Shown piece after piece: positions 10,252 to 63,062 of a stretch of 64,000 nucleotides of DNA. Location: assembly GCF_013167455.1 (NCBI RefSeq), contig NZ_CP038328.1, one strand, 5' to 3'. Within the stretch, counting starts at the first letter, position 1; each line of letters begins with the position of its first letter. The stretch comes from Escherichia coli O157:H7. Lineage in GTDB: Bacteria > Pseudomonadota > Gammaproteobacteria > Enterobacterales > Enterobacteriaceae. A model generated the notes under the pieces. The model had not been told where the DNA came from, ran no database searches, and worked only from the letters and a program-made list of their open reading frames with translations. The translations under genes and the position numbers were made by a program.

Positions 10252-10350
10252 GTTGCATTATATACAAATTAAAACTTCATAGCTGATTATTAATAATCAA
10301 CATCAGGCGTCAATTTCAGTCTAACATTGGCGCCTGCCAGAGGTGATGCG

Positions 10351-10566: not shown

Positions 10567-10567
10567 T

Positions 10568-11803: not shown

Positions 11804-11854
11804 TTGCAAAGTTTGCCCCCAATTTGCCCCATTTAGTACCAGAGAACCGAAATA

Positions 11855-43319: not shown

Positions 43320-44402
43320 TTAGCGAATTGCTATTTCCGTTTCTGCATCAAAGAAATGACATTTAGTCATATCAAAATGAATAGTGATATTTTCTCCTGC
43401 ATGATAATCATTTAACGCACCAGCACGGACCACTAACTCGTGCCCCCCAACCGTGGTGTAGAGCATAAATTCCGCACCGGTTAATTCTACCACGCTAATT
43501 TTGGCGGAAATATTATTTTCCTCTTGCGCGTCCGGATGAATATCTTCCGGGCGCATTCCCATCACGATGGGCTTATGCAAACTTTCCTGTGTTTTCAGAA
43601 CCGCTAATTTCTCTTCGGGAATGGTTAATTTAAGCGTTTCCGTAACGAATTTATCGCCATCGATCGTGCCGCGAATAAAATTCATCGCTGGTGATCCAAT
43701 AAATCCGGCAACAAACATATTCGCGGGTTGGTTATAAACGGTTTTCGGCGCACCCACTTGCTGAACAATCCCGTCTTTCATAATCACAATCCGCGTCGCC
43801 ATGGTCATCGCTTCGGTCTGATCGTGGGTCACGTAGATCATGGTGGTGTTCAGTTTCTGATGCAGCTTGCTGATCTCTGCGCGCATTTGTACGCGCAGCT
43901 TGGCATCAAGGTTAGAGAGCGGTTCATCCATTAAAAACACGCCCGCTTCGCGCACAATCGCCCGCCCGAGCGCCACACGCTGGCGTTGCCCGCCGGAAAG
44001 CGCGCCCGGCTTGCGCTTCAGGTACTCACGCAGGCCGAGAATTTGCGCCGCCCAGTTCACCCGCTCATCAATCACCTCTTTGGCGATTTTTTGCATCTTC
44101 AGGCCAAACGCCATGTTGTCGTAAACCGTCATATGCGGATACAACGCGTAGTTCTGGAACACCATTGCGATATTGCGTGCTTTGGCTGGAACGTCATTCA
44201 TTCGTTTGCCGTCGATCAACAGATCGCCGCCGCTGATCTCCTCAAGCCCGGCAATCATGCGCAGGGTGGTCGATTTACCGCAGCCCGACGGGCCGACAAA
44301 TACGATGAACTCTTTATCGGCAATTTCCAGGTTGAAGTCCTTCACCACATGCACCTGGTTATCGTAGATTTTTTGAATATGTTGTAACGAAAGCTGAGCC
44401 AT
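43320..44402 (-). CDS. ycjV: ABC transporter ATP-binding protein (sugar importer type), apparently intact
   Basis: 360 aa; Walker A GPSGCGKST, signature LSGGQRQR, Walker B FLMDEP. Confidence 0.85.
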   Translation of the reverse strand: MAQLSLQHIQKIYDNQVHVVKDFNLEIADKEFIVFVGPSGCGKSTTLRMIAGLEEISGGDLLIDGKRMNDVPAKARNIAMVFQNYALYPHMTVYDNMAFGLKMQKIAKEVIDERVNWAAQILGLREYLKRKPGALSGGQRQRVALGRAIVREAGVFLMDEPLSNLDAKLRVQMRAEISKLHQKLNTTMIYVTHDQTEAMTMATRIVIMKDGIVQQVGAPKTVYNQPANMFVAGFIGSPAMNFIRGTIDGDKFVTETLKLTIPEEKLAVLKTQESLHKPIVMGMRPEDIHPDAQEENNISAKISVVELTGAEFMLYTTVGGHELVVRAGALNDYHAGENITIHFDMTKCHFFDAETEIAIR

Positions 44403-44415
44403 GTTGATTCCTTTG

Positions 44416-45075
44416 CTATACGTTTTGCCAGAAGGCCGATAACCGCGGCCAGGTCAGGGAGTCCGTTGAGGGCAACAATAATTGCGCCCCGGTTAAGCCT
44501 GCGCCGATCCCCACCGAGCGCATACCGCTGGCGTTAATGGCGTCAATGCCCGCCTGCGCATCTTCAATGCCGATACATGCCTGCGGCGGCACGCCCAGCC
44601 CGGCACAGGCAGCGAGAAAGATTTCCGGATCCGGTTTCGAGTTTTTAAGTTGGGAAGCATCCGCGCAGAAGGTGAAAAACTCGCGCAGCTCCAGCGCCGC
44701 TAAAATCGTCGGCGCATTCAGGGAGACAGAAGCCAGCCCTACCGGGATCTGCTGTGCGCGGAGCTCTGCCAGCAAATTGCGAATACCGGGCAGCACAGCA
44801 TTAACCGTCAGCTCGCGCAGTGAGTGGACGTAAAGCAGATTTTTGCGATACGCCAGTTGCGTCCGCTCCTGCGGGTTAAAGTCGCCCTCTTTGCCCCCGT
44901 GTTGCAGAATGCGCCGCAGAGACTCATCGCGGCTGATCCCTTTTAGGGATTCGTTAAACTGCGCATCAATGCTGATGCCAATTTCAGCGGCAATCTGCTG
45001 CCACGCCTGGAAATGCAGATGCGCGGTATCGGTGATTACACCATCCAGATCGAAAATTACCCCTTGCAGTTTCAT
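44416..45075 (-). CDS. ycjU: beta-phosphoglucomutase (HAD family)
   Basis: 219 aa; N-terminal DLDGV HAD motif. Confidence 0.9.
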
Positions 45076-47339
45076 TCATCCTCCTGATGCGTGGTAGCGG
45101 TCCCATTGAAGGGCAAAATAAAATCACCCAAACAGAAAACAGATTCTTCAGCCACGGATATAAGCTGCCCGTTCAAACGCAGTGAAACGGGCGCAGAAGT
45201 TCGAATCGCAATACGCTGCGCGTCGAGCGTGACCTGTAATTCGCAGCCCTGCCAGAACAGAGGGAAAGACAACTGTTGCCACTGCTCCGGTAACGCCGGA
45301 TTGAGATGTAATTCACCGTCACGCACGCTCACCCCGGCAAAACCCTGAATCGCCCCCAGCCAGATAGCGCCAGTTGCGGCAGCGTGGATACCATCATCAC
45401 AACTATGCGGATCAGCACCAAGATCGATTTCAGTCCCCTCGCGCCAGAACTGATAACTTTGGGTCAGCAGGCCACAGCGTGCGGCAACAATGCCGTGGAT
45501 TGCTTTACTTAATGACGAGTCGTGAATAGTGCGCGGTTCATAAAATTGCAGATTGGCAAGACACGATACCGCTGAGAACTGCTCCGGCAGCATGTAATTG
45601 AGCATCACCACATCAGCTTGTTTGAGGATCTGCATCTCGTTCACTTCTGCGCGTGAATAATCCAGCAGAATGGTTTGCTTCCCCGCCGCCGCTTTGTATT
45701 TAGCCAGATTAATCGCCGGCTTAGCCATAAACGAATCATCCTGCGGCAAAACGCCATCGGGCTGCGTTTCTGGCATCCATAGCTCTTTGAGGAACATTTC
45801 GGCGCGATGGATAAACGCATCGTCGCTACAGCCGAACTGGCGGGCAATATTCAGCGCCTGTTGAACGTTGTAGCGGGCCATATAGCTGGTGAAGGCGTTA
45901 TTATTGACATGTTCGGTATATTCGTCTGGCCCAATAACATCATGAATTTCCAGACGGTCGTTAACCCTCACCGCGCGGCTAATCCAGAACTTTGCAGTTT
46001 CCAGAAGTAGCGCCATGCCTTCATGAGCAATGAAACTTTCATCCCCCGTGGTCTGCCAGTATTGAATAACCGCCCAGGCGATATCGGCCACCAGATGATG
46101 TTCCGCCTGCGCCGAGGCCACTTTTTGCCGCAGCCCGGTACGAATGTTAATGGCGGCAAATTCTGGCGTCTCTTCTTCGCCGCTGCGCGCGCTTTCCCAC
46201 GGAAATAGCGCGCCCTGCCAGCCGCTGCGCCGTGCTTTCTCCTGCGCGCCTGGCAAGTTGTGCCAGCGATAACGCAGTAAACTTCGGGCAACCGTCGGAT
46301 CGCTAAACAGATGGAACGGCAGCAAAAATACTTCTGTATCCCAGAAAACGTGGCCTTTGTAGCCTTCGCCGGTTAAGCCTTTTGCCGCAATACTGCTGCG
46401 CTCGTCGTGAGCCGGCGTCATGATGCGCAGATGATAAAGCGCATAATCTAACGCTTGCTGATCGTGCGCATCGCCGCCATTTACCGTGATACGACGTTTC
46501 TGCCACCATTGACGCCAGTTTTCTGTTGATGCTGCAAGAAGTTGGTCGTAACTCTGCTGCGCGCATATTTCAAGCTGGCGAAGCGACGCGCTGCCCCACT
46601 CGTCTAAAACGGCTTGCCTGTCATCCCGCCAGTCGATCCACACCAGTTTTTGCAACGTCACTGTCTCGCCTGCATGAAGCTGCGCACTGGTATGTTGCAG
46701 CAAACGGCGCTCTTTGGCGGTATAGCATTGCTGCACATCACCGCTCACCTTACAGCAACAGCTGATGGCCACATCACTGCGTCCATCCTGGGTGGTGTAG
46801 ATCCCCTGCATCAGATGCTGACCAAACACCCGCACCTGGGTTTCGTCGAGATGTTGGCGACCGTGGTTGGTTTGCGTGGCGTCGATACCTGTTGAAATCA
46901 GCACTGACGCGTCGGCGTCCAGTGGCGTAATAGTGATTTCCAGCGCAATGAGCGGCAGTTGGTCTGCCGAAACAAAGCGACGGCTGGCGATGGTGTAACC
47001 TGCGCCGTTGCTGGTACGCCAGACAACGTTGCGGCGTAATTCGCCACTGGCAAAGTCAAGCTCACGCTGCCAGGCTTCGTGGGATAACGAGAAAACCTCA
47101 CCATTTATGGCAATCTCCATCCCCAAGATATCAGGCAGGTTCACCAGTTCGTTGATTTCACCTTTTCCCGCCCGATGATACAGCCCCGCCAGATACATCC
47201 CTCGCGTCTGGCGCGTGTAATCTTCTTCATGGCTGGCGCGAAGCCCAAGATAGCCGTTCCCCTGCGCCATCAGCGATGCATACTTGTTCAGGGTATGCTG
47301 GCTGAAATGGGGTTCTGATAACGTTACTGGCCTGGTCAT
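45072..47339 (-). CDS. ycjT: glycoside hydrolase family 65 phosphorylase (kojibiose phosphorylase)
   Basis: 755 aa; coupled to ycjS and ycjU. Confidence 0.9.
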
Positions 47340-50289: not shown

Positions 50290-51132
50290 TTAGCCCTTCA
50301 CGCCACCGGCGGTCAAACCACTCTTAATAAAACGTTCCGAAAGCGCATACATAATCACCACCGGCAATGCGGTCACCAGCGAGGCCGCCATCATCCGTCC
50401 CCAGATGTAATCTGGCGTACTGAACAGCGCGTTCAGGCCGACTGGTAAGGTGAAATTGCTGGCGCTGGAGAGGAAAATCGACGCAAACAGATAGTCGTTC
50501 CATGCCACCATAAAGCAGTAGACGAATACGGATATCAGCCCGGACATCGCCAGGGGCACGGTGATACGGAAGATAATTTGCAGACGGTTGAGGCCATCCA
50601 TCATCGCCGCTTCTTCGATCTCATCAGGGATGGTGTCGAAGTAACTTTTCAGCATAAACACGGCGGTGGGCAGAGTTTGCGTCACCATGGTAATGATCAG
50701 CGCCATCTCGGTGTCGTAAATGCCAAGTGCGGTGATAATTTTGAACAGCGGCACCACCAGCAAAATGCCGGAGAACATATACACCGTGTAAAAGCTGGCG
50801 TTGATGGTCATCCGGCCTTTAAAGCGCAGGCGAGAAAGCGCGTAAGCTCCGAGAATGCCGAGAAATACCGCCACCACGGATGAAACCACCGACACCACCA
50901 TGCTGTTACGGAAGTAGTCGACAAACGGGAAAATCACCGGGTTAAAAATGTCGACATAATGCTCCAGCGTCCACTGTTGCGGCAGCAGCGTAGGATGCAG
51001 CGAGATCGCCTCTTTTGCGCTCTTGAACGAGGTCATCAGCATCACAAAAAACGGAAACAGCGTGATGATGAGAAACAGCGCCAGCCCGCGGTAAAAACCG
51101 ATACGACTGAGTGTGCGTTTATTTGTTGCCAT
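50290..51132 (-). CDS. ycjP: ABC transporter permease
   Basis: 280 aa; multi-TM; coupled to ycjO. Confidence 0.85.
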   Translation of the reverse strand: MATNKRTLSRIGFYRGLALFLIITLFPFFVMLMTSFKSAKEAISLHPTLLPQQWTLEHYVDIFNPVIFPFVDYFRNSMVVSVVSSVVAVFLGILGAYALSRLRFKGRMTINASFYTVYMFSGILLVVPLFKIITALGIYDTEMALIITMVTQTLPTAVFMLKSYFDTIPDEIEEAAMMDGLNRLQIIFRITVPLAMSGLISVFVYCFMVAWNDYLFASIFLSSASNFTLPVGLNALFSTPDYIWGRMMAASLVTALPVVIMYALSERFIKSGLTAGGVKG

Positions 51133-51760
51133 TGAGGTTCACCCGTTTCCTGGTCAGCAGAATGACAGCGAAAATAATGATGAAGAGCACCACCGAGATC
51201 GCCGCCGCTTTCCCTAAGTCATTAAAGGCAAAGGCGGTTTTGTAGAGATAGACACCAAGAATATCGACCTTGGTTGTCAGCAGATAAACATCCGCGAACA
51301 TGTAGAACATCCAGATGGTGCGAAGGGTCACCACCGTCGCCAGGACCGGCATAATCGCGGGCAGCGTGACGATACGAAACCGTTGCCAGGCATTAGCGCC
51401 ATCCATCTCTGCCGCTTCGTACAGCGATTTGTCGATGGTCTGCAAAATCGCCAGAAACGAGATAAAGGCATACGGGAAGTAGCGCCAGATGGCGAAGATC
51501 ACCACCAGCACAAAACTACTGCCCGGATTATCGAACCACAGCGGTGCCTGCTCATAAAGATGCAGAAGATCGACGCCGAGGTAGTTCACAATGCCGTAGC
51601 CGTTGTTGAACATGTATTTCCAGGCGAACACCAGCGAAATAGACGGCGTTACGTAGGAGAGGATCACCAGCGAACGCGCGGTTTTGCGCAGGCGGAACTC
51701 GCGGTTGAAAAACATCGCCACTGCCAGCCCGAGCACGGTGCTGCCCGCCACCACCAACGC
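51119..51760 (-). pseudogene. ycjO: ycjO ABC transporter permease, 5'-truncated by prophage insertion
   Basis: permease frame is open from the stop at 51119 up to ~51760, then phage-end sequence; no start codon or N-terminal segment present. Confidence 0.8.
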
Positions 51761-51777
51761 GTGTAACCAGGTGAATC

Positions 51778-51936
51778 ATTTGATACCGACAAGGGTTTTA
51801 GTGAAAGGAGGTGAAATCACCTGTAAGATGCTGAAATAAAACAGGTGATGTATACTTCGGACGGAAAACTCTTTTTGATACCGACTGCTCAACAAATAGT
51901 CAAAAGATCAAAAAACGGCGACACATTTGATACTGC
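51778..51936 (+). repeat. candidate transposase end-binding sites (attL-type direct repeats)
   Basis: TTTGATACCGAC at 51778 and 51873, TTTGATACTGC at 51925. Confidence 0.5.
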
Positions 51937-52117
51937 TAATTTACCCTTAAAATCTTCTTCAAAACATCTTCAAACTGCCAAAATGCTCACATAATCGATC
52001 TAACTATAATCAGTATGATAATCATCATGAATTACTATTCAATAGCGTGATTATCTTGGGATGAGTCATATGATCTCTATATGTATTTACAGCACCACCT
52101 CATGATAGCGATGGCGC

Positions 52118-52729
52118 TTAACCAACAACATTTTTCTTTACTGTCACTGCCCCTGATTCCTGGGTGGCGTTATTGCTCGAGTTGTACTTCTCAATAACGC
52201 GCAAAATCTCTTTGTCTGTTTCTTCACTTCCCGCCATTCCTATCTTTATTGCATTTTTTAGTACGGGACGTAATGGCAAGGCATCAATGATGCTTTCTAC
52301 CGCATCCTGGCTGATTGTAGATGTATTCATTGCTGCCAGCCTGACAAGGTTGTTAGTACCTTCTCGCCTGATGAATGTAAGGATTAATTGCTTCTCTTGG
52401 GGGCTTAGAGAGCTAAGCGCCTGATCAATACCCGAACCTGAATCGCAATTGTTTTCGATTTTTCCGCATTCATCTTCGTTCTTGCCTGTGGCCAACCATT
52501 CGAGTGAACAATTACAGGCTTTAGCTATTAAGGCCAGTTTATCCAAAGGAGGGAAGTTTTTCCCCTTCCTGTAATTTCTTACTGTGGCTTCAGATAGTCC
52601 ACAAAGGGTCGCCAGTTCGACGTTTGTCATGTTTCCCATAGCCATAGCTAAGCGTTCTGAAAATCGGTTTATTCCTTCCATATCAATAAACCGTTCCGCA
52701 CTGGATACGGTTTTTTCTGCCTTATCCAT
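52118..52729 (-). CDS. prophage repressor (Mu c position), XRE-type HTH
   Basis: 203 aa; HTH VELATLCGLSEATVRNYRKG; AGGGGG SD; leftward at prophage left end. Confidence 0.8.
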   Translation of the reverse strand: MDKAEKTVSSAERFIDMEGINRFSERLAMAMGNMTNVELATLCGLSEATVRNYRKGKNFPPLDKLALIAKACNCSLEWLATGKNEDECGKIENNCDSGSGIDQALSSLSPQEKQLILTFIRREGTNNLVRLAAMNTSTISQDAVESIIDALPLRPVLKNAIKIGMAGSEETDKEILRVIEKYNSSNNATQESGAVTVKKNVVG

Positions 52730-52885
52730 ATAACCCCCTATAAAACAAAGAAATTATCAACATCGCATTTAATTTCGATGTGCTCGCAAAAAACCGTTGA
52801 TATCGAATTATTTTGCGATTATGATTTACCTAAATCGATAACCGGTTTTGATTATCGGTTCAGGTAAACATGAGAGGATCACACA
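52730..52885. promoter_or_regulatory. repressor/ner divergent operator-promoter region
   Basis: repeated GATTAT/CGATAA motifs and inverted repeat CGATAA-N10-TTATCG between divergent regulators. Confidence 0.45.
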
Positions 52886-53152
52886 ATGAGGGTATCCAGA
52901 CAAGCATCGAATAATTTGTTTGTTCGAGAGGGGTGTGACTGGTCTGCTAAAGCGGTATATGCAGCCCTTGAAAACAAAGGCACAGACCTCCCTGAACTGG
53001 AAAGGGAGTTAGGATTAAAAAGCGGATCAATGCGCAATGTGTTTTACCGCCAGTGCCGTAAATACGAAGCCGCCATCGCCGAAAAAATAGGGGTTGAACC
53101 TGCTGTAATCTGGCCCAGCAGATACCAGGTGGACGCCAGAGAAGTGGCTTGA
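52886..53152 (+). CDS. Ner-like DNA-binding protein
   Basis: 88 aa; C-terminal VIWPSRYQ matches the Mu Ner C-terminus as I recall it. Confidence 0.8.
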   Translation: MRVSRQASNNLFVREGCDWSAKAVYAALENKGTDLPELERELGLKSGSMRNVFYRQCRKYEAAIAEKIGVEPAVIWPSRYQVDAREVA

Positions 53153-53162
53153 TGGGGGATGT

Positions 53163-55253
53163 ATGTGGGTAACAGCAAAAGAATGTGTTGGTCTTCCTGA
53201 TTTACCAATGATGGAACATAACATTCGCCATCGACTCACAAAAGCAGCTGCGGGAAATGCAGCCATGTTACGCAAACGTAAGGGGACAAAAGCAATCGAA
53301 TTTAATATCGATTGTTTGCCTTCTGGCGCGCAACAAGTATTGCGTGAACGTTATGCCCTTCAACTGATGACGCAAAAAGCTGATGAATCACCGGCTCCGG
53401 TGGTGACAAAGGCCAGACGCTCGCCTGCCGTGGTTGATGCGGTGGAGGCATATCGCGGATCACCACAACTGATGGTTGAACGCCTTAATGCCCTGACTGA
53501 AAACCAGCGCCAGGTGGCTGATGCACGAATCGCGATCGTCAGCGAAGTGATGAAAGTCGCGCAACAACCCGGTTTCAGCTGTGCGAAAGCTATCCGGTTT
53601 ATCGTTGACAACCTGGCACGTTCGCAACTGGACGAGCGCATTGTGGCAATGGTTGAGACGGCGAACGCCAAAAAGGGAAACAGCCGTGCGTTGAGTGAAA
53701 TAACGCTGAAACGCTGGATTGCGGCCTTTAACAAGGCGCAGAACGCCGCTGAACGCCTGCTTTTACTGGCACCGGGTAAGCGCCAGGAAATAAAAGCCGA
53801 AGATATTAACTGGCTGCCCGAATTTCTGGCGCAGTATCGCCAGTCAAACGGCCGACCAATGACCGAGGCTTACGAGGATTTTGTCGCTGAATGGCAGCAC
53901 CGGCACGCTGATGAGCCTTATATGCTCGATATCATGCCGTCTTATGACACCATTCGCCGCGCAATGAAGAAACTGCCGGAAGTGGTGAAACAAAAAGGCC
54001 GGGTGACCGGCAGTGAATACCGCCAGCTTGAGGGATTCACGCGCCGCGACTGGTCCAGAATGCCGGTGAATTATGTCTGGATTGGTGACGGTCACGGCAT
54101 GAAGCTGAAATGCGCACACCCGGTTCACGGTCGGCCATTTGCACCGGAAGTGACCTTTGTTATCGACGGTGGCACGCGCTTTGTGGTGGGCTGGAGCCTT
54201 GACCTGGCTGAAAATGTTTTCGCCGTAGCCGGTGCCATACAGCACGGCATTCGCCATCACGGCAAACCGTTTCTGTATTACTCGGATAACGGCTCCGGGG
54301 AAACCGCCGACATCCTGGATAAGGAGGTTGTGGGGATACTGCCGCGACTGGGGATTAATCACCCGACCGGGATTGCCGGTAATCCGCAGGGACGAGGCAT
54401 TATCGAACGGCTTAACCGCACATTACCGATGCGCATAGCCCGTAAATACCGCACCTATTTCGGGAAAGGTGCAGATCGCGAGACGTTACGCAAAACCAAC
54501 CGCGATTTACGCTCGGCATTTACTGCCCTGCAACAGGGCAAACGGCTGAACGCCCGGCAGCAGTCAGCGATGCGTGATTTACCGTCCTGGTCTGAACTGA
54601 TTGATGCCATTCGTGACGGTGTTGAGTGGTACAACAACCGGCCGCACGATGAATTACCGGTGAAGCCGAACGGCAAGCATTACAGCCCGGCGGAGTTCAG
54701 AAAAAAACGCCTGGCGGAAGAGGACACGGAAATTGAATGGCTGTCCGATGTTGAGCTGCGGGATATGTTCCGGCCGATGGTGGAACGCCCTGTAAGACGC
54801 TGTGAAATACGCTGGCTGAATAATATTTACTACGCGCCCGAGCTGCGTGACGAGCATGGTCGTAAGGTGCTTATCAGCTATGACATTCATGATGCCGAAC
54901 GAATTACCGTACGTCGCCTGGATGGCAGCGTGATTTGCGAGGCGGTATGGGACGGTAATAAACGCGAAGCCTTCCCGGTTAGCGCGGAATACTACAAACA
55001 GCAGCAACGCCTTAAAGGCATGCGTAAACGCGCAGAGGAAAAAATCCGTGATGCCGAGGATGAGGTTGTCAACGTGCTGGAGCACAAGCCGCAGGAGCCC
55101 TGGCTGGAAAACATATACCGCCCTGTGGGTAATACGGTGACCGTTCAGCAACCGGTCGCTGACGATGAACCTGATGAAGAATACGAGCGTAATTTCCAGC
55201 GGGGATTGCAGTTGCTGGAAGCGAAATTAAAAGAAAATGACCCGCTGGCCTGA
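53163..55253 (+). CDS. MuA-like DDE transposase
   Basis: 696 aa; N-terminal W..KEC..LP..P like Mu A; candidate DDE residues in WIGDGHG, YYSDNGSG, IERLNRT. Confidence 0.9.
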   Translation: MWVTAKECVGLPDLPMMEHNIRHRLTKAAAGNAAMLRKRKGTKAIEFNIDCLPSGAQQVLRERYALQLMTQKADESPAPVVTKARRSPAVVDAVEAYRGSPQLMVERLNALTENQRQVADARIAIVSEVMKVAQQPGFSCAKAIRFIVDNLARSQLDERIVAMVETANAKKGNSRALSEITLKRWIAAFNKAQNAAERLLLLAPGKRQEIKAEDINWLPEFLAQYRQSNGRPMTEAYEDFVAEWQHRHADEPYMLDIMPSYDTIRRAMKKLPEVVKQKGRVTGSEYRQLEGFTRRDWSRMPVNYVWIGDGHGMKLKCAHPVHGRPFAPEVTFVIDGGTRFVVGWSLDLAENVFAVAGAIQHGIRHHGKPFLYYSDNGSGETADILDKEVVGILPRLGINHPTGIAGNPQGRGIIERLNRTLPMRIARKYRTYFGKGADRETLRKTNRDLRSAFTALQQGKRLNARQQSAMRDLPSWSELIDAIRDGVEWYNNRPHDELPVKPNGKHYSPAEFRKKRLAEEDTEIEWLSDVELRDMFRPMVERPVRRCEIRWLNNIYYAPELRDEHGRKVLISYDIHDAERITVRRLDGSVICEAVWDGNKREAFPVSAEYYKQQQRLKGMRKRAEEKIRDAEDEVVNVLEHKPQEPWLENIYRPVGNTVTVQQPVADDEPDEEYERNFQRGLQLLEAKLKENDPLA

Positions 55254-55324
55254 AATAAAAAAATAACCCGAGCGGCGACTCAGGTTATTTGATTAAACAA
55301 GGTATCAAATGAGAGGTTAATAAT

Positions 55325-56257
55325 ATGACTGATATTAACGATGTAATCAAGACCATTGATGAACTTATTGATGGCGGCGTACTGACGCAGTATGCCATCG
55401 CCAGAGAGGCGGGAATTTCCGACGGCACATTATCGGCTTTCCGTAAGGGAAAATATAAAGGCGATAACGCTGCTGTGGCTGCTTCCCTGCGTTCCTGGTA
55501 TGAGAACTGGAATAAACAAAGCGCACTGCCGGAACCGCCGCAGTTTGTGGAAACGCAGACAGTCCAGGAGCTGCGCGCACTGTTTCAGGCGGTTCGTCTG
55601 ATGGGCTGTATTAACGTTATTGTGGGCGTACCGGGTGTGGGTAAAACGGCCACTGCCCGTAATTACTGCCAGGAGCAACCAAACACCTGGATGATCACCC
55701 TGTCACCCGCGCACTCCAGCGTCACGGAGTGTCTGCTGGAGCTGGCCGATGCGCTGGGGATTGATTACACCCGCGCGAACAAAGGGGCATTATCCCGCGC
55801 CATCCGCCGTCGCCTGACGGGAACGCGTGGACTGGTTATTGTGGATGAGGCGGATCATCTTGGTATTGACGGTCTGGAGCAACTCCGGGCAATTCAGGAC
55901 GCCACGGGGATCGGGATGGTGCTTATTGGTAACCCGCGCGGATTGTTTAAAGGTGGACGCCGCACCTTTGATGATTTATCGCGCCTGTTCAGCCGTCTTG
56001 CCCGTACAAAACAACTTCGCAAGGCCAAAAAGGCGGATGTGCTGGCCATTGCCAGGGCGTGGGGGATCAGTGGTGAGGCCGAGCTGGCCGTCATGCAGGC
56101 TATCGCTGAAAAGCCGGGAGCGTTACGCGTTCTGACACATACGCTTAACCAGGCGTGGCTCACCGCCAGCGGTGAAGGCGCGGCGCTGACAGAAAAACAT
56201 ATTAATGCGGCCTTTAAAGAGGTTTATACCAACCCTGAATTACTCTCACAGGTGTGA
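55325..56257 (+). CDS. MuB-like AAA+ target DNA activator
   Basis: 310 aa; Walker A GVPGVGKT, Walker B VIVDEADHL; LPEPPQFVETQTV resembles Mu B. Confidence 0.9.
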   Translation: MTDINDVIKTIDELIDGGVLTQYAIAREAGISDGTLSAFRKGKYKGDNAAVAASLRSWYENWNKQSALPEPPQFVETQTVQELRALFQAVRLMGCINVIVGVPGVGKTATARNYCQEQPNTWMITLSPAHSSVTECLLELADALGIDYTRANKGALSRAIRRRLTGTRGLVIVDEADHLGIDGLEQLRAIQDATGIGMVLIGNPRGLFKGGRRTFDDLSRLFSRLARTKQLRKAKKADVLAIARAWGISGEAELAVMQAIAEKPGALRVLTHTLNQAWLTASGEGAALTEKHINAAFKEVYTNPELLSQV

Positions 56258-56481
56258 TTATGGCGGTATTTAATATTCCTGATATTTACGGACGCTTTTA
56301 CCTGGTTAATTTCGATAACGTGAAGGTGATTTCACTGGCCGAAAATAAAGAATGTGGCGATTTACTTTTTGAATTTAATGACCGCACACGAATGGTGATA
56401 TCTGCCGGACTTGATCGAGAAGGTGCGACAGACGTTTACAGCGGAATATGCCGTTCTGTTGGTGCGAAACAAGTCAGCTAA
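56254..56481 (+). CDS. hypothetical Mu-like early protein
   Basis: 75-aa ORF coupled to B stop. Confidence 0.5.
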   Translation: MIMAVFNIPDIYGRFYLVNFDNVKVISLAENKECGDLLFEFNDRTRMVISAGLDREGATDVYSGICRSVGAKQVS

Positions 56482-56748
56482 ATGAGGTGTTATATGAATA
56501 TGCAATCCTGCGGTAACAAAATGAATTTATTCGACTCCCTGAACAGCGCGCGCCGTCTGACCGAACTTGCCGGTGCGGTACTGGAACGCAGTAAGCGCTA
56601 TCCGCAACGTTTTGCACTGAAAACCACGCCGCCGGTAGGCAACGTGCAGGGAACCGGTGAAATTGAAATCACCATACAGACCAACGGCCTGCGCCGCCGT
56701 GTGAAGGCCACCCGCATCAGCGGCTGCACGGTTTACTGGGAGGTGTGA
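56482..56748 (+). CDS. hypothetical Mu-like early protein
   Basis: 88-aa ORF in tightly packed operon. Confidence 0.5.
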   Translation: MRCYMNMQSCGNKMNLFDSLNSARRLTELAGAVLERSKRYPQRFALKTTPPVGNVQGTGEIEITIQTNGLRRRVKATRISGCTVYWEV

Positions 56749-56749
56749 G

Positions 56750-57031
56750 GTGAAAAAAAATCTCATTGCATGGGCGTGGTCGAGTGGTCTTATTGAGTTT
56801 GGTTACGTCCTGCCGGAAGGTGCATTGCCGATAGTTGCCGGAAAGCCTGCCACGGTACGGCATGTGATTGAGGTTATGGCGCGTCATGGACGTGATGAAC
56901 AGGAGCAGTTACTGGTTCCGGGGATACCGGAAGCGGTGACGGAGGAAGAAGCCTTTAATGCCATGATTCGGTTCTGCCGTGAGGTCAGACGCCGGGTCAG
57001 TTATCCAAACAGAACGAGGACCAGAGGATGA
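56750..57031 (+). CDS. hypothetical Mu-like early protein
   Basis: 93-aa ORF. Confidence 0.5.
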   Translation: MKKNLIAWAWSSGLIEFGYVLPEGALPIVAGKPATVRHVIEVMARHGRDEQEQLLVPGIPEAVTEEEAFNAMIRFCREVRRRVSYPNRTRTRG

Positions 57032-57300
57032 GTAAAGTCGTACGCATTATTTTCGAATACAAGGAGCACGTTATCCATAAAAACGCTGATGGAACAGTGC
57101 GCATGGGGGTAAGTCTGGACATACGTTCAACCGGGATAAAGCAGAAAGGTGATGGACCCGCCATGATTTTTGGGGTGGTTATGCTCGCGGAAAGCAGAGA
57201 CTTTGCTGAACTTGTGGCAATGAAAGCCAGTGCGCTCATGAAAGATATGAGCATGCGTTCCGGGGTTATTAAAGGTAATGAATTTAATCAGCAGGGGTAA
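57028..57300 (+). CDS. hypothetical Mu-like early protein (paralog pair, copy 1)
   Basis: 90 aa, begins MSKVVRIIFEYKEHV. Confidence 0.5.
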   Translation: MSKVVRIIFEYKEHVIHKNADGTVRMGVSLDIRSTGIKQKGDGPAMIFGVVMLAESRDFAELVAMKASALMKDMSMRSGVIKGNEFNQQG

Positions 57301-57304
57301 TTCC

Positions 57305-57598
57305 ATGAGCAAAGTACGCGTTATTTTTGAATTTAAGCATGTTTCGCATGACGAAAAACCGGCAGGCAATGACTGTGTTGAAGTGCATGAAAAGATTGGT
57401 GTGGATGTAAAAACAGAACGTGATACGAATAACAGGCCGACGTCACTCTGTGACGTTTATGCAAGTATTCTCCAGTATCACAGTCCTGAAATTATTCAGT
57501 TTCTCTCAGCGGAATTTCAGGCATCTGTACAGGCTTTTGGGGCGGATGCCATCATTAAACGCCACCGCGTGCATAAAGCATCAGGCACACTGCAATAA
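57305..57598 (+). CDS. hypothetical Mu-like early protein (paralog pair, copy 2)
   Basis: 97 aa, begins MSKVRVIFEFKHV. Confidence 0.5.
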   Translation: MSKVRVIFEFKHVSHDEKPAGNDCVEVHEKIGVDVKTERDTNNRPTSLCDVYASILQYHSPEIIQFLSAEFQASVQAFGADAIIKRHRVHKASGTLQ

Positions 57599-57609
57599 GG
57601 AAAAACAAA

Positions 57610-58140
57610 ATGGCAAAACGCGTTACAAAATTAAAGGCCGCAGCAGAGGCGGCACCGCAGACCCGTGAAGAGGTCAGCCGCGATATCCGCACCCTGGGCG
57701 ATATTCAGCGAGAGGCGCTGCGCCTGGAAACAGCGATGAATGATGAAGTGGCAGAAATCACCGCCCGTTATACGCCGCAGATTGAAAACCTTAAAAAAGA
57801 AATCAAAGTGCTTTTTAAGGGGATTCAGGACTGGTGCAAAACCAACCGTGATGAGCTGACGAACGGCGGCAAAACCAAAACTGCCAATCTGACCACCGGA
57901 ACGGTGTCATGGCGACTGGGGAATCCATCATGCAGCGTCAGTCGTGATGTGGAAGGTGTGATTGAAATGCTGCGCCGTATGGGCCTTGAGCGTTTTATCC
58001 GCACGAAAGAGGAAGTGAACAAGGAAGCGGTCCTGGCGGAGCCGGATGCGGTGAAAGGGATTGCCGGTATTAAGGTGAATAAAGGCGCTGAAAGTTTTTA
58101 TGTCGAGCCTTTTGAACAGGACGCCGGACTGAATAAATAA
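57610..58140 (+). CDS. gam: Gam-like host-nuclease inhibitor (DNA end-binding)
   Basis: 176 aa; extensive similarity to Mu Gam as recalled (RLETEMND...ANRDELTNGGK.KTANL.TG.VSWR). Confidence 0.9.
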   Translation: MAKRVTKLKAAAEAAPQTREEVSRDIRTLGDIQREALRLETAMNDEVAEITARYTPQIENLKKEIKVLFKGIQDWCKTNRDELTNGGKTKTANLTTGTVSWRLGNPSCSVSRDVEGVIEMLRRMGLERFIRTKEEVNKEAVLAEPDAVKGIAGIKVNKGAESFYVEPFEQDAGLNK

Positions 58141-58237
58141 CACCGCATTAATCAATTAAATATCACTTCGTTTTAATTATGGCGCTCGCGTCAGGGGACT
58201 GCCTGCGCCTGTAAACTGAAAATAAGGAACAGGATAT

Positions 58238-58780
58238 ATGGCATATTTTTATTTCAAATTAGACCGTGTGCAGACAAATAAATATTTCACCAAATATCAA
58301 CAGACTGTTTTACCGCTACGCAACAGTATTCTTCGGGCATTACTGAAAAATACAGGCGCTGCCGGATTGCGCTTAAAGCCGTTTGCCATGGACGTAATCA
58401 GTGAGTTTTATTTTTCTGGTGCTCTGCCTGCGGGCTGGCGTAAGCGCGATGATGTGGCTTTTGTCGGGGACGGACCGTGCTTTATTGCCAGACCTGATGA
58501 GTCATGCCCTGAAGGACCGGCGATTGCCGCAATGATTGAAGCCGCTGAACGCGAGTTAAGAAAGCGTCCTGATTTCCTTGTCTGGCTCTGTGAAAAGCTG
58601 GGGGTAATGAGAATCCCCTCCATGTTTAACATGGACTCCTGGTGGACCCCGTCGCTCTCCCGTGATGCCCTGTGCGTGGTGTTTAAAGTAGGCGCTTATG
58701 GCAGGGAAATAAAAGGGGGTATTCCTGAAGAATGCCAGGAGATTAAACATTCTGAATATGTGGCGCTGACGGAGGAATAA
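58238..58780 (+). CDS. hypothetical Mu-like early protein
   Basis: 180-aa ORF. Confidence 0.55.
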   Translation: MAYFYFKLDRVQTNKYFTKYQQTVLPLRNSILRALLKNTGAAGLRLKPFAMDVISEFYFSGALPAGWRKRDDVAFVGDGPCFIARPDESCPEGPAIAAMIEAAERELRKRPDFLVWLCEKLGVMRIPSMFNMDSWWTPSLSRDALCVVFKVGAYGREIKGGIPEECQEIKHSEYVALTEE

Positions 58781-58783
58781 TTC

Positions 58784-59317
58784 ATGATTGATGCAAAAGT
58801 GCTTGAAGGGGTTAAAAACTGGCTGAGTATTTACGGGCGTCTGACCTGCGGCATTCTGGCTGAAAAAATGAATATGCCGCCATCCTCGATGGTTTATTTT
58901 CTGCGTGATGCGGTCGATGCCGGGGTGCTGACGGAATGTAACGGTTTTTATGATATTCCGCGTCCCCGCCCGGTGCAGCCGGTTCGTCGCAAATGCAGCC
59001 AGGAAGGTGCGGCTGATGATGTTCAGTGGTGCAGCTTCAGAAAATCCCTGCCGTGGATTGAGGGGCATGATATTCCGTCAATGGCGTGGGAATTTGCTCA
59101 GGGCGTTCTGACCTGTGAAACCGTTTATGTGGTGGCTGAAGTTGATGAGCAGGCCATGAAAGAAGGCGTGCCCCAGTTTGTGATGGCGTATATCGACATA
59201 CGCCTGGGTGTCATTATCTGCGGTTTAAGCGGCTGGAATATCACCTCGCGCGTTCTGCGTTACCTGATTGTTGACCGGACGGCCGCGCCTGCTGGGATAT
59301 CTGCGGAGGTGGCGTAA
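58784..59317 (+). CDS. hypothetical Mu-like early protein
   Basis: 177-aa ORF. Confidence 0.55.
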   Translation: MIDAKVLEGVKNWLSIYGRLTCGILAEKMNMPPSSMVYFLRDAVDAGVLTECNGFYDIPRPRPVQPVRRKCSQEGAADDVQWCSFRKSLPWIEGHDIPSMAWEFAQGVLTCETVYVVAEVDEQAMKEGVPQFVMAYIDIRLGVIICGLSGWNITSRVLRYLIVDRTAAPAGISAEVA

Positions 59318-59832
59318 TGTTCTTTAAAACATCAAACCCTTCCGCGCTGGCCGCGTGGCAAAAATATCAGCAGGACTGCCAGAAAGTTAAGGATGAGGCA
59401 AAACGCCTTGAGGCCGTGCTGAATGTTGCGTGCCGGTCGGTATTTGTATCCGGTATCAGTGGCTTTTGTTTTAAAGGGCTGCGCTTTATGGATGACAAAT
59501 ATCCTTTTCATCGCGACTTATGGCGAAAACCGACTGCGTCGAATGGCTGGAGCTGCACACCGCGCACATCACGTATTCCCAAAGCCCTGCGCGTTGCCTC
59601 TGACGAACTTAACAGTCTGTGGCGTGAATATTCGCCCGTCACGTATGCCAGAACCGATGCACTGTTGTTCTGGCTGGGTATTGATTTCTCGGCAATCATG
59701 TTTGGCCCTGTGAAGTGGTTCTGCGTTGACGATGTGATTTACCTTGAGTGCGGCGTAAAACCCGCAAATCAGAAAATGACCGAAATTCTGTCTGATGAGT
59801 TTTATGCTGCTGAAAAGCGAGTCAGGGGGTGA
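59317..59832 (+). CDS. hypothetical Mu-like early protein
   Basis: 171-aa ORF, start overlaps upstream stop. Confidence 0.55.
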   Translation: MFFKTSNPSALAAWQKYQQDCQKVKDEAKRLEAVLNVACRSVFVSGISGFCFKGLRFMDDKYPFHRDLWRKPTASNGWSCTPRTSRIPKALRVASDELNSLWREYSPVTYARTDALLFWLGIDFSAIMFGPVKWFCVDDVIYLECGVKPANQKMTEILSDEFYAAEKRVRG

Positions 59833-59835
59833 TGT

Positions 59836-60387
59836 ATGATGATTTTACAACCCATGGGGCGAAAAGGTCAGGCACCTGCTCATGTCCGTGCGTGGACACC
59901 TGAAGAAGATGCGCTGCTGATTGCGCTTTATCCATCCACCCCGGTTAAGGATATTGCTGTCAGGGTAAAAAGAAGTTTCTGGGGTGTACATAACCGGATT
60001 GTTTTATTACGCGGTACTTACCCGGAGTTGCTCAAATGCAAACGTCCAAGATTTAAACATGATGAAGATAAATTTATCCGAAAAAATGCCAGAACGATGA
60101 CCGGTAAGCAAATAGGAGAATATCTGGGGCGAGACCGGGATTCTGTCCACAATCGGGCGCGATATATTGGCGTAAGCATGAAAAAATACGGAGAATTGCT
60201 GCCCTTCACCCGTATACCTGACGATGATGTTCATCTTATTCGTGAATTACGGGATGCTGAATCACCACGACGTCTTACCTTCCGGGAAATAGGCGAGAAA
60301 TTTGAATTATCCGAGAGTACGGTGAATTTTATTTATCACCATCGCCGGACTGCCGAGGACGCTGTATTACGGGAGTTAACGCCATGA
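59836..60387 (+). CDS. putative DNA-binding protein with three tandem HTH-like repeats
   Basis: 183 aa; three ~45-aa repeats each with an acidic patch then a T/S.x.EIG....R...V.NR-like helix pattern. Confidence 0.5.
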   Translation: MMILQPMGRKGQAPAHVRAWTPEEDALLIALYPSTPVKDIAVRVKRSFWGVHNRIVLLRGTYPELLKCKRPRFKHDEDKFIRKNARTMTGKQIGEYLGRDRDSVHNRARYIGVSMKKYGELLPFTRIPDDDVHLIRELRDAESPRRLTFREIGEKFELSESTVNFIYHHRRTAEDAVLRELTP

Positions 60388-60569
60388 TAAAGAGACTTGT
60401 ATTTTTCGCAATTTTCGTTCCGGTGTTGGGGGTTGGTTTTATATTTGCGATTACAGGAAACCTGTCCATGATGCCAGATATTTGGTTCTTTATCAGGATG
60501 TCGCTCTTCCTGTTTATTATGAATCTTCTTATCGACATATATATCCGTATTACTGGAAAACATAAATGA
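60384..60569 (+). CDS. small hydrophobic membrane protein
   Basis: 61 aa, two predicted TM segments. Confidence 0.5.
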   Translation: MIKRLVFFAIFVPVLGVGFIFAITGNLSMMPDIWFFIRMSLFLFIMNLLIDIYIRITGKHK

Positions 60570-60940
60570 GAAAAATCACGTCCTTGTCAGAGTTACAGGA
60601 GATGAATATGAGTATTGAATTAAGATCGTCTTATGAGTATCGCAAATTTCTTATCGCCGGAGGCATGAAACCGGAAGATGTGGAAAAAATCGTTTCTTTT
60701 ATGGATAAGGAATGTGATAAGCGGGATGTGTCAGAAATTATTATGGATGACATGATTCTGGATTCAGTCGTGGCGTTAAGTCCGTTATGGATTGTGCATT
60801 CTCTTGCGGAAATTGCCAAAGGCACCGATAAACAGGCAGCTGTTGCTGCCCTTCAGACGCTTAATGAAATGCGTATATCTCCACGCCCGACATTAATACA
60901 GATGATTTTGTCCAGTATGGAGGATAAAGCAAATGAATAG
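60566..60940 (+). CDS. hypothetical protein
   Basis: 124-aa ORF coupled to neighbours. Confidence 0.5.
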   Translation: MRKITSLSELQEMNMSIELRSSYEYRKFLIAGGMKPEDVEKIVSFMDKECDKRDVSEIIMDDMILDSVVALSPLWIVHSLAEIAKGTDKQAAVAALQTLNEMRISPRPTLIQMILSSMEDKANE

Positions 60941-61130
60941 TCTACCCGCTGGATGGGCGCGCCCTCTGATGGCTAAGAAGCATCATTTTTTTAAAACTGG
61001 CGATAATATCAGTATATGTAGGCGGTGGTTATATCTGGCTCATAATCGCGAGCCGGATACATTTGAAAGCCCTGATGACTGTGCCGAATGTCGCAGAAGA
61101 CTGAATAAGGAGAAAGATAATGGACAGTAG
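60933..61130 (+). CDS. hypothetical small Cys-containing protein
   Basis: 65 aa with ICRRW...DDCAECRRR. Confidence 0.4.
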   Translation: MNSLPAGWARPLMAKKHHFFKTGDNISICRRWLYLAHNREPDTFESPDDCAECRRRLNKEKDNGQ

Positions 61131-61416
61131 TTCGCAGTTGTTCTGGTGTTTATATATCACATCGTTTTTCGGTGCATTCGTCATTACACGATGGCTGTGC
61201 CGGAAAGTTATCAGTATTTTTCATAAAAAATACCTGATTGGGCTGGCGGCGACTTCTCTGATTAATGCACTTGCCAGATATCATAAGGGGGAATACTACT
61301 CAAGAATAAAAACTGATGATGGTTTTAATATTTTTGTGATTCCTCCGGAGTATCGGGTTCAGCTCGATCGGGAAAGTAATATCTATCATATCAGCAGGAG
61401 TGTTGATACAGCATGA
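61120..61416 (+). CDS. hypothetical protein with N-terminal TM segment
   Basis: 98-aa ORF. Confidence 0.45.
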   Translation: MDSSSQLFWCLYITSFFGAFVITRWLCRKVISIFHKKYLIGLAATSLINALARYHKGEYYSRIKTDDGFNIFVIPPEYRVQLDRESNIYHISRSVDTA

Positions 61417-61922
61417 GAGGGAAACTGATATCCGCTATTCATGTGGCAAAGCGCGAGCTTGCCCTAGATGATGAGACCTACACATTCGTACTACTGGCAG
61501 CCACCGGCAAAACCAGCTGCCGGGATATGTCACCCGGTGAGTTATCCCGCGTGCTGGATGTTTTCAAAAAACGCGGTTTTAAAGTGCGTCAGAAACCGGT
61601 TAACCGGGCCTTAAAACCGGGTACGGTGACCGCCAAAATTCGCGCCATCTGGAAAGTGATGCACCGGCAGGGCTTTATCTCTGATGGTGCGGAAACCGCT
61701 CTTAACCGCTGGGTGAAATCGCAGACGGCCGCGCAGAACGGCGGCGAAGGTGTGGCAAACTGGCAGTGGCTGGAGCAACACCCCGCCCTGGCCTCAGATG
61801 TGCTGGAGCGTCTCAAGCGATGGCACCGCCGCAAAATGCTGGCCGCGATGGGAATGCCCGAACGCACGCTGATGGGGTATGACGCCGTTTGCAGGCAGTA
61901 TGAAAAATCACTTCCCCGTTAA
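61413..61922 (+). CDS. GemA (Mu gp16)-like regulatory protein
   Basis: 169 aa; N-terminal ISAIHVAKRELALDDETY pattern typical of Mu-like gp16 as recalled. Confidence 0.75.
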   Translation: MRGKLISAIHVAKRELALDDETYTFVLLAATGKTSCRDMSPGELSRVLDVFKKRGFKVRQKPVNRALKPGTVTAKIRAIWKVMHRQGFISDGAETALNRWVKSQTAAQNGGEGVANWQWLEQHPALASDVLERLKRWHRRKMLAAMGMPERTLMGYDAVCRQYEKSLPR

Positions 61923-61991
61923 CCCCAAATCCCGCCACAACGCGGGATTTTTATTTTAAACTTACCGGGAACGCGAGAACCGGAGGCTGAT

Positions 61992-62417
61992 ATGGCAGAA
62001 ACTCAGATGAGCATGTTTGGTGGTGACAGTGAGCAACTGCACGCCCTTATCGACCGCCTTGATGACATCCCTGATGATGTTCTCAAAAAGAACTGGCCGC
62101 GGACCCTGTCAGAACTGGTTGAAGTCACCGGCGCAGAACTTCAGCGTCAGGGGATTGAGCCGGTACTGGCCGGTAAACTGGCACGCAAGGTGGCTGCGGC
62201 TCAGGCAGCCTATATGGGCGGACGGGGTTATTACCTGCCGGTCGGGGAATCTCTCTTTGCCGAGCTGCGAAACAATGAGATATTTTCGCGCTGGGACCGG
62301 GGCGAGAAAATTGAATCCCTTCGCCGCCATTACCGGATGTCAGAAACCCAGATTTATACCGTCATACGCGAACAGCGCCGTCTGCATCTGGCAAGAACGC
62401 AACCGCCACTTTTCTGA
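61992..62417 (+). CDS. Mor-like middle-operon transcriptional activator
   Basis: 141 aa; position after gemA; C-terminal HTH-like SETQIYTVIREQRR. Confidence 0.75.
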   Translation: MAETQMSMFGGDSEQLHALIDRLDDIPDDVLKKNWPRTLSELVEVTGAELQRQGIEPVLAGKLARKVAAAQAAYMGGRGYYLPVGESLFAELRNNEIFSRWDRGEKIESLRRHYRMSETQIYTVIREQRRLHLARTQPPLF

Positions 62418-62488
62418 TATTCCGCAAAGCCTGCCGCCTCTCCTTCACCGTTACGCTGACTCAGAGAACATCATGAGACAGCGTAACA

Positions 62489-62989: not shown

Positions 62990-63062
62990 ACCGCTTCTGG
63001 CGACCGCTCATGATAGCGCTGCTGTGTGCGGTACTGCTGTTACGGGGTGTCCTGTGGCTGCG

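What the first reader, a model, noticed from the sequence alone, without database searches (positions are those of the whole stretch)
43320..44402. ycjV reads as an intact 360-aa ABC ATPase
The ORF contains complete Walker A, ABC signature and Walker B motifs. From memory ycjV is annotated as a pseudogene in K-12 MG1655, so this strain may keep a functional ATPase for the ycjNOP transporter, although here the transporter itself is broken by the prophage insertion in ycjO.
Basis: partly seen in the sequence, partly recalled or inferred. Interest (0 to 1): 0.25.

Follow-up and report, generated by a model that had tools for sequence, protein, structure and literature searches.

The report
Ordinary intact ycjV sugar-transporter ATPase gene
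The gene is the normal, full-length form of ycjV, the ATPase of an E. coli sugar importer, as found in most E. coli; the laboratory strain K-12 is the exception with a well-known one-base frameshift, so this is ordinary and already documented.

Summary
Observation confirmed. Window 43320-44402 (minus strand) is an uninterrupted 360-aa ORF. It has all the ABC-ATPase motifs and a complete MalK-type C-terminal domain, and it aligns end to end with MsmX (PDB 6YIR) and with 359-362-aa orthologs in other Enterobacteriaceae.

K-12 ycjV is 1 bp shorter: a G6 tract (window 43443-43448) is G5 in K-12. That gives a 322-aa truncated product, annotated as the pseudogenes ycjV/ymjB in NC_000913.3.

The intact form is the norm. 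The exact G6 71-mer is in 4379 of 4995 complete E. coli genomes that carry the gene. G5 is in 369; 58 of the 60 listed have K-12-sized genomes (about 4.5-4.8 Mb), and most of those are named K-12 laboratory derivatives.

The window sequence is identical to O157:H7 EDL933 (WP_000057976.1). It is 357/360 identical to the BL21 protein, which has been purified and shown to be ATPase-active.

The transporter is indeed broken. A Mu-like prophage starts at 51762 and leaves only ycjO nt 240-882. In the O157:H7 lineage ycjN (Q210 stop) and ycjM (frameshift) are already dead.

Verdict: already known, low interest.

The parts
43320..44402 (-). ycjV coding sequence: 360 aa plus stop, the intact CUT1-type (MalK/UgpC/MsmX-like) ABC transporter ATP-binding subunit
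   Evidence: ORF. NCBIfam and Pfam matches. 100% DNA identity to O157:H7 records annotated WP_000057976.1.
43443..43448 (-). G6 homopolymer tract (gene nt 955-960, codons G319-G320). This is the site of the K-12 G6-to-G5 frameshift.
   Evidence: Sequence, alignment with K-12, simulated slips.
44271..44294 (-). Walker A / P-loop GPSGCGKS (aa 37-44)
43986..44000 (-). ABC signature LSGGQ (aa 135-139)
43923..43940 (-). Walker B VFLMDE with catalytic Glu160 (aa 155-160)
43821..43829 (-). H-switch THD (aa 192-194)
43350..43697 (-). C-terminal MalK-type regulatory domain (OB_MalK plus TOBE_2, aa 236-351). Its last 40 residues are lost in K-12.
44409..44413 (-). Shine-Dalgarno-like AAGGA, 6 nt upstream of the ycjV ATG
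45092..45105 (-). Candidate internal YcjW operator TGGGACCGCTACCA, 17 nt upstream of the ycjU/pgmB ATG. It is identical to the copy upstream of ycjM in K-12.
   Evidence: The position matches the second ChIP peak reported in PMC6599011.
44416..45075 (-). ycjU/pgmB beta-phosphoglucomutase, intact, immediately upstream of ycjV in the operon
45072..47339 (-). ycjT kojibiose phosphorylase, intact
50290..51132 (-). ycjP permease, intact
51119..51761 (-). ycjO permease remnant: only nt 240-882 of the 882-nt gene, cut off from its 5' part by the prophage
51762..64000 (+). Left part of a Mu-like prophage (repressor-like HTH gene, ner-like gene, MuA-type transposase, MuB-type AAA ATPase, and further genes). 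It runs off the end of the window.
42370..43275 (-). ompG porin, the last gene of the operon, 44 nt downstream of ycjV
41261..42259 (+). ycjW, the LacI-family repressor of the cluster
   Evidence: PMC6599011

Best explanation
This is the ordinary wild-type allele of ycjV, the nucleotide-binding subunit of the YcjNOP-V carbohydrate ABC importer (CUT1 family), encoded in the ycjMNOPQRSTUV-ompG cluster.

Inferred mechanism, by homology with MalK and MsmX: two YcjV protomers sit under the YcjO/YcjP permease pair. They close around two ATP molecules, each held between the Walker A of one protomer and the LSGGQ of the other. ATP hydrolysis (Walker B Glu160, His193) then drives the alternating-access cycle that imports the sugar delivered by the lipoprotein YcjN. 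The C-terminal OB/TOBE domain holds the dimer together and may be regulatory.

K-12 lost one G from a G6 tract. That replaces the last 40 residues with two wrong ones, which is why ycjV is called a pseudogene there.

In this O157:H7-type strain the ATPase gene itself is intact, but it is probably stranded. The permease gene ycjO is split by a Mu-like prophage. In the lineage, the binding-protein gene ycjN carries a stop codon.

Shown here: ORF integrity, the motifs, allele frequencies, the K-12 lesion, and the prophage junction. Inferred: ATPase activity of this exact variant, the partnership with YcjNOP, and loss of transport.
For: Intact ORF with all catalytic motifs and a full C-terminal domain.

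End-to-end alignment with MsmX 6YIR (E = 1e-147) and with MalK structures.

Orthologs of 359-362 aa in Citrobacter, Enterobacter, Salmonella, Cronobacter and others.

The exact protein is seen on 1000 or more contigs, and one source names it 'Maltose import ATP-binding protein YcjV'.

The exact G6 allele is in 4379 of 4995 genomes; the G5 allele is in 369.

K-12 is annotated as frameshifted and as the ycjV/ymjB pseudogenes.

dN/dS between the window allele and the repaired K-12 allele is 0.05, so the gene was under purifying selection until recently.

BL21 YcjV (WP_000057985.1) differs from the window protein at 3 of 360 residues. It has been purified and shown to retain ATPase activity (PMC7658222).

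The operon context pgmB-ycjV-ompG is conserved. Published work assigns YcjV as the NBD of YcjNOP (PMC11398462) and shows that YcjW represses the whole ycjM-V-ompG unit (PMC6599011).

Prophage junction. ycjN stop and ycjM frameshift in EDL933 and AC-5.
Against: No experiment found here's literature searches shows that YcjV actually energises YcjNOP. The assignment rests on gene neighbourhood.

The window allele carries two O157-lineage substitutions (I283M, A305V). In the sequences compared here the other E. coli alleles, several other-species homologs and MsmX all have I and A at these positions. Their effect is untested.

Expression downstream of the Mu insertion is unknown. The simple promoter scan found no sigma-70-like site on the coding strand near ycjU or ycjV.

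The state of ycjN and ycjM in this very strain cannot be seen, because they lie beyond the window.
Confidence: 0.9

Rival explanations
1. Orphan but still useful. YcjV is kept intact in O157:H7 because it has a job independent of YcjNOP. For example, it could energise another CUT1 importer as a shared 'multitask' ATPase, or act through its TOBE domain in regulation. On this reading the intact ORF reflects ongoing selection, not just recency.
For: ycjV stays intact in O157:H7 genomes although ycjN and ycjM are inactivated.

A paper lists ycjV among the factors reported to affect bovine gut colonisation by EHEC (PMC8009128).

The closest solved homolog, MsmX, is a multitask ATPase (PMC7658222).
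Against: The O157:H7 lineage is young, so an intact ORF needs no selection to explain it.

Only 6 branch-specific substitutions exist, 2 of them nonsynonymous at otherwise conserved positions. That is uninformative, or if anything hints at relaxation.

E. coli YcjV could not replace MsmX in B. subtilis and lacks the proposed multitask signature residues.

The colonisation claim is second-hand here. A transposon hit in ycjV could also be polar on ompG.
Confidence: 0.07
2. Intact reading frame but functionally dead. The gene is silent because of the polar Mu insertion upstream, or is crippled by I283M/A305V. It would then be a pseudogene in waiting rather than a functional ATPase.
For: The Mu-like prophage separates ycjP through ompG from the ycjM promoter.

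No promoter-like site was found on the coding strand near ycjU or ycjV.

Two lineage-specific substitutions fall in the C-terminal domain.
Against: An exact copy of the candidate YcjW operator sits 17 nt upstream of ycjU, at the position of the published second ChIP peak. This suggests an internal control point.

The Mu repressor-like gene is transcribed toward ycjO', so read-through is conceivable.

I-to-M and A-to-V are conservative changes, away from the catalytic core.
Confidence: 0.3
3. K-12 ycjV is equally intact and the pseudogene call is an artefact.
For: None was found. Homopolymer runs are error-prone in some sequencing chemistries, which could in principle create false G5 calls.
Against: 369 complete assemblies carry the exact G5 70-mer; 58 of the 60 listed have K-12-sized genomes (about 4.5-4.8 Mb) and most are named K-12 laboratory derivatives. 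The curated MG1655 reference splits the gene into pseudogenes ycjV and ymjB. Metabolic engineers use 'the pseudogene ycjV locus' as a neutral integration site (PMC10380740).
Confidence: 0.01

Closest known systems
E. coli YcjV (BL21(DE3) WP_000057985.1; O157:H7 EDL933 WP_000057976.1)
   Same: Identical to the EDL933 protein. The DNA shows no mismatches over 10.7 kb of the ycj region. It matches the BL21 protein at 357 of 360 residues. Same pgmB-ycjV-ompG context.
   Different: None for EDL933. Compared with BL21: A232 (BL21 has S), M283 (I) and V305 (A).
E. coli K-12 ycjV/ymjB pseudogene (b1318/b4524)
   Same: Same locus, with 98.1% DNA identity: 20 substitutions, of which 3 are nonsynonymous.
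   Different: K-12 has G5 instead of G6 at gene nt 955-960. Its frame ends after 322 aa (...VGGTS) and the last 40 residues of the TOBE domain are lost.
Bacillus subtilis MsmX (PDB 6YIR), a multitask CUT1 ATPase
   Same: Best solved homolog, with an end-to-end alignment at E = 1e-147 and reported 64% identity (PMC7658222). Same NBD plus OB/TOBE architecture.
   Different: YcjV is operon-encoded with its own permeases, not orphan. It failed to replace MsmX in vivo and lacks the charged residues proposed as the multitask signature.
E. coli MalK (PDB 1Q12, 2R6G and others) and UgpC
   Same: Same family and domain order, with all catalytic motifs. The NCBIfam UgpC-subfamily model is passed (486 bits against a cut-off of 432).
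   Different: The score is below the MalK equivalog cut-off (431 against 568), so this is a paralog, not MalK. No evidence was found here for MalT- or EIIAGlc-type regulation.

Membership tests
ABC transporter nucleotide-binding domain (PF00005) | Walker A GxxxxGK[ST] | tested here: met
   GPSGCGKS at aa 37-44. PF00005 E = 1e-31.
ABC transporter nucleotide-binding domain (PF00005) | ABC signature LSGGQ | tested here: met
   LSGGQ at aa 135-139.
ABC transporter nucleotide-binding domain (PF00005) | Walker B hhhhDE with catalytic Glu, D-loop, H-switch and Q-loop | tested here: met
   VFLMDE at aa 155-160, followed by PLSNLD. THD at aa 192-194. FQ at aa 82-83.
ABC transporter nucleotide-binding domain (PF00005) | ATP hydrolysis | not testable with these tools
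   Reported for the 99.2%-identical BL21 protein in PMC7658222. Not measured for this variant.
CUT1-type sugar-importer ATPase (MalK/UgpC/MsmX group) | C-terminal MalK-type OB plus TOBE regulatory domain, full length | tested here: met
   OB_MalK at aa 236-288 and TOBE_2 at aa 282-351. Aligns to the last residue of MsmX.
CUT1-type sugar-importer ATPase (MalK/UgpC/MsmX group) | Passes a curated family model | tested here: met
   NF008653 UgpC subfamily, 486.3 bits against a cut-off of 432.
MalK proper (NF008233 equivalog) | Score above the equivalog cut-off | tested here: not met
   431.2 bits against a cut-off of 568. This is a paralog, not MalK.
ycjV ortholog group (ycjMNOPQRSTUV-ompG cluster) | Synteny between pgmB/ycjU and ompG, next to ycjW | tested here: met
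ycjV ortholog group (ycjMNOPQRSTUV-ompG cluster) | Functional coupling to the YcjO/YcjP permeases and the YcjN binding protein | not testable with these tools
   Assigned from gene context only in the literature. In this strain ycjO is disrupted.
Pseudogene (as in K-12) | Frameshift or premature stop relative to full-length orthologs | tested here: not met
   The window has G6 and reads through to residue 360. K-12 has G5 and stops at residue 322.

The most novel reading that the evidence does not exclude
After loss of its cognate binding protein (ycjN stop) and, in this strain, of a permease (ycjO::Mu), the intact YcjV persists in O157:H7 as an orphan ATPase under selection. The reason would be that it cross-energises another CUT1 importer, or contributes to gut colonisation in some other way. 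A minor variant of this idea is that the G6 tract acts as a slip-prone on/off switch, since G5 and G7 alleles recur on unrelated backgrounds.
Probability: 0.06. Interest if true: 0.35.

Novelty: already known. Interest (0 to 1): 0.07.

Why it matters
It matters little beyond bookkeeping. It is a reminder that K-12 is a poor reference for the ycj sugar-utilisation cluster. Experiments on YcjNOP transport done in K-12 lack a full-length ATPase, whereas BL21 and most wild isolates have one. In O157:H7 the cluster is decaying at different genes (ycjM and ycjN, plus ycjO in this strain), so no single strain's annotation should be taken as the state of the pathway. For anyone trying to find the still-unknown transported substrate, the practical point is to use a strain such as O145 RM12367-C1 or BL21, where the parts inspected here are intact. 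In the O145 strain every gene from ycjM to ompG is annotated intact; for BL21 only ycjV and its immediate neighbours were checked.

Tried and rejected
(1) A premature stop hidden in the C-terminal domain. Rejected: the protein aligns to the final residues of MsmX and of 359-362-aa orthologs.

(2) The intact allele as a special feature of this strain. Rejected: it is the majority allele.

(3) The K-12 lesion as unique to K-12. Partly rejected: strain 2014C-3051 has the same G5 on a gene that differs from K-12 at 21 sites. That means either an independent slip or a homopolymer assembly error, and I could not tell which.

(4) Relaxed selection on the O157 branch. There are only 6 branch-specific changes (4 synonymous, 2 nonsynonymous), too few to say anything.

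(5) An internal promoter for ycjU-ycjV. The consensus scan found none on the coding strand. Only the operator copy was found, so continued expression is not established.

(6) One repeat finder failed on a strand argument. It was replaced by a script.

(7) Structure prediction, fold search and the large representative-protein search were not run, because the sequence-level evidence was already decisive.

Full report
**1. The observation**

An ORF of 360 codons plus stop lies at window 43320..44402 on the minus strand. The plus-strand translation of the same interval is broken by many stops.

The ORF starts with ATG at 44402, which is 6 nt after an AAGGA ribosome-binding sequence and 13 nt after the stop of pgmB/ycjU. 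It ends 44 nt before ompG.

The protein carries all the catalytic motifs:
- Walker A GPSGCGKS at aa 37-44
- Q-loop Q83
- signature LSGGQ at aa 135-139
- Walker B VFLMDE at aa 155-160
- H-switch at aa 192-194

Pfam finds ABC_tran, OB_MalK and TOBE_2 across aa 21-351. The NCBIfam UgpC-subfamily model matches aa 1-356 at 486 bits, above its 432-bit cut-off. The MalK equivalog cut-off is not reached (431 against 568), so this is a MalK paralog.

**2. Is the C-terminus complete?**

Yes. The closest solved protein, B. subtilis MsmX (6YIR), aligns 1-360 to 1-365 with E = 1e-147, and MalK structures align over aa 1-353.

Orthologs in Citrobacter, Enterobacter, Salmonella, Cronobacter, Trabulsiella, Buttiauxella and others are 359-362 aa at 76-91% identity.

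The exact sequence is on record on at least 1000 contigs. One source names it 'Maltose import ATP-binding protein YcjV'.

**3. K-12**

The K-12 gene is 1082 nt against 1083 nt here. The two differ by 20 substitutions and one missing G in the tract that reads GGGGGG here (gene nt 955-960, window 43443-43448).

The K-12 frame therefore ends after 322 residues (...VGGTS), losing the last 40 residues of the TOBE domain. PGAP flags it as 'frameshifted'. The curated MG1655 record lists the two halves as pseudogenes ycjV (b1318) and ymjB (b4524).

Metabolic-engineering papers use 'the pseudogene ycjV locus' as an integration site (PMC10380740).

**4. How common is each allele?**

ycjV is found in 5001 of 5426 complete E. 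coli genomes.
- A 71-mer around the tract in its G6 form is matched exactly in 4379 of 4995 genomes, including BL21(DE3).
- The G5 form is matched exactly in 369 genomes.
- Of the 60 G5 genomes listed, 58 have K-12-sized chromosomes (about 4.5-4.8 Mb). Most are named K-12 laboratory derivatives such as MG1655, DH5alpha, DH1, C600, J53, TG1 and NCM3722.
- The two exceptions are human or food isolates, 2014C-3051 and 08-00022, both annotated as frameshifted.

The gene in 2014C-3051 differs from K-12's at 21 other sites. Its G5 is therefore either an independent slip or a homopolymer assembly error.

Simulated slips predict 322 aa for G5 and 331 aa for G7. Both product types exist in the protein database, and same-site truncations occur in other species as well (P0047, P0044, P0095, P0094). 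The tract is thus a recurrent weak point.

dN/dS between the window allele and the repaired K-12 allele is 0.05 (17 synonymous and 3 nonsynonymous changes). The gene was evidently under purifying selection until recently.

**5. What the sequence is**

The ycj region of the window, from ycjO' through ycjW, matches O157:H7 EDL933 with no mismatches over about 10.7 kb. The protein is WP_000057976.1.

BL21 YcjV, WP_000057985.1, differs at three residues: 232, 283 and 305. It is the protein that Leisico et al. purified. It retained ATPase activity but could not substitute for MsmX in B. subtilis (PMC7658222).

M283 and V305 are O157-branch changes. In the sequences compared here the other E. coli alleles, several other-species homologs and MsmX all have I and A at these positions. 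With only 6 branch-specific substitutions, nothing can be concluded about selection.

**6. Surroundings and the state of the transporter**

Homology to ycjO stops at 51761. From 51762 (TGTAACC...) the sequence matches Mu-like prophages found at many different sites in other STEC genomes. Their annotated genes include a repressor-like HTH gene, a ner-like gene, a Mu transposase, an AAA ATPase, Kil and Gam.

Only ycjO nt 240-882 remain on this side of the prophage. No complete E. coli genome shares this junction: none of the 5426 complete genomes covers 80% or more of a 146-nt junction probe. The insertion is therefore private to this strain.

Independently of the prophage, EDL933 and AC-5 carry CAG-to-TAG at ycjN codon 210 and a 1-bp deletion in ycjM. 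The nearest non-O157 relative examined, O145 RM12367-C1, has the entire cluster intact. Those two genes lie beyond the window, so their state here is inferred from the EDL933 identity.

**7. Mechanism**

By homology with MalK and MsmX, a YcjV dimer would bind two ATP molecules at the Walker A / LSGGQ interfaces beneath YcjO/YcjP. It would power the import of the sugar presented by the lipoprotein YcjN. The enzymes of the cluster point to kojibiose, glucosylglycerate or guloside-type substrates (PMC11398462; PMC6599011). This partnership is inferred from operon context and has not been shown.

YcjW represses the ycjM-V-ompG unit and binds at two sites, one upstream of ycjM and one between ycjT and ycjU. 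I recovered a single 14-bp candidate, TGGGACCGCTACCA, present identically at both places in K-12. It is also present at window 45092-45105, 17 nt upstream of the ycjU ATG.

No promoter-like site was found on the coding strand there. Whether ycjU-ycjV-ompG is still transcribed downstream of the prophage therefore remains open.

**8. Comparison with what is known, and verdict**

Everything in the finding is already documented:
- the K-12 pseudogene (MG1655 annotation)
- the intact gene in other E. coli (RefSeq proteins, and biochemical work on the BL21 protein)
- the operon and its repressor

One paper even lists ycjV among the genes absent as a protein from MG1655, and cites EHEC bovine-colonisation screens (PMC8009128).

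The only strain-specific feature nearby is the Mu-like insertion in ycjO, which is a separate matter from this finding. The finding is correct but ordinary: already known, low interest.

Noticed in passing
window 51762-64000: A Mu-like prophage (repressor-like gene 52118-52729 on the minus strand, MuA-type transposase 53163-55253, MuB-type ATPase 55325-56257) is inserted in ycjO. None of the 5426 complete E. coli genomes shares this junction, whereas near-identical prophages sit at many other sites in STEC genomes. The repressor-like gene is transcribed toward ycjO'-ycjP, so read-through into the ycj genes is conceivable.
   Followed up: partly
window 43443-43448, and proteins P0044, P0047, P0094, P0095: The G6 tract in ycjV is a recurrent slip site. 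G5 occurs in K-12 and also in the unrelated isolates 2014C-3051 and 08-00022. A G7-type 331-aa product and same-site truncations in other species are also on record. True mutations were not distinguished from homopolymer assembly errors.
   Followed up: partly
L003 (EDL933) 1479-4463 and L002 (AC-5) 9398-12382; outside the window: In O157:H7, ycjM carries a 1-bp deletion (first stop at codon 125) and ycjN has Q210 changed to TAG. In O145 RM12367-C1 (L010) the whole ycjM-ompG cluster is intact. The cluster is decaying at different genes in different lineages: ycjV in K-12, and ycjM and ycjN in O157:H7.
   Followed up: partly
window 45092-45105 (minus strand): TGGGACCGCTACCA is a candidate YcjW operator. 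It is identical to the copy 26 nt upstream of the ycjM ATG in K-12, and lies inside the 3' end of ycjT, 17 nt before the ycjU ATG. This matches the two published ChIP peaks.
   Followed up: yes
window about 22810-23870, breakpoint at 23483/23484: abgT is interrupted by an IS3-family IS1203/IS629 element, as in EDL933. The copy in the window lacks about 237 bp that are present inside the EDL933 transposase gene, so it is an internally deleted IS.
   Followed up: partly
window 1-11900: The Rac-type prophage region next to ttcA (recE, recT, intR and others) is only 87-94% identical to EDL933 and has gaps. Mismatches persist up to about 11.9 kb, whereas the chromosome from there to 51.7 kb is essentially identical. 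The prophage is mosaic or divergent relative to EDL933.
   Followed up: no
window 43297-43314: A GC-rich hairpin, GGGGGAATGCCTTCCCCC, lies in the 44-nt spacer between the ycjV stop and the ompG start. On the coding strand it has no T-run, so it is not an obvious terminator.
   Followed up: no
collection-level result: About 425 of the 5426 complete E. coli genomes have no ycjV match at all. Six matches lie on records typed as plasmids. A few genomes have only a C-terminal fragment annotated as 'TOBE domain-containing protein'.
   Followed up: no
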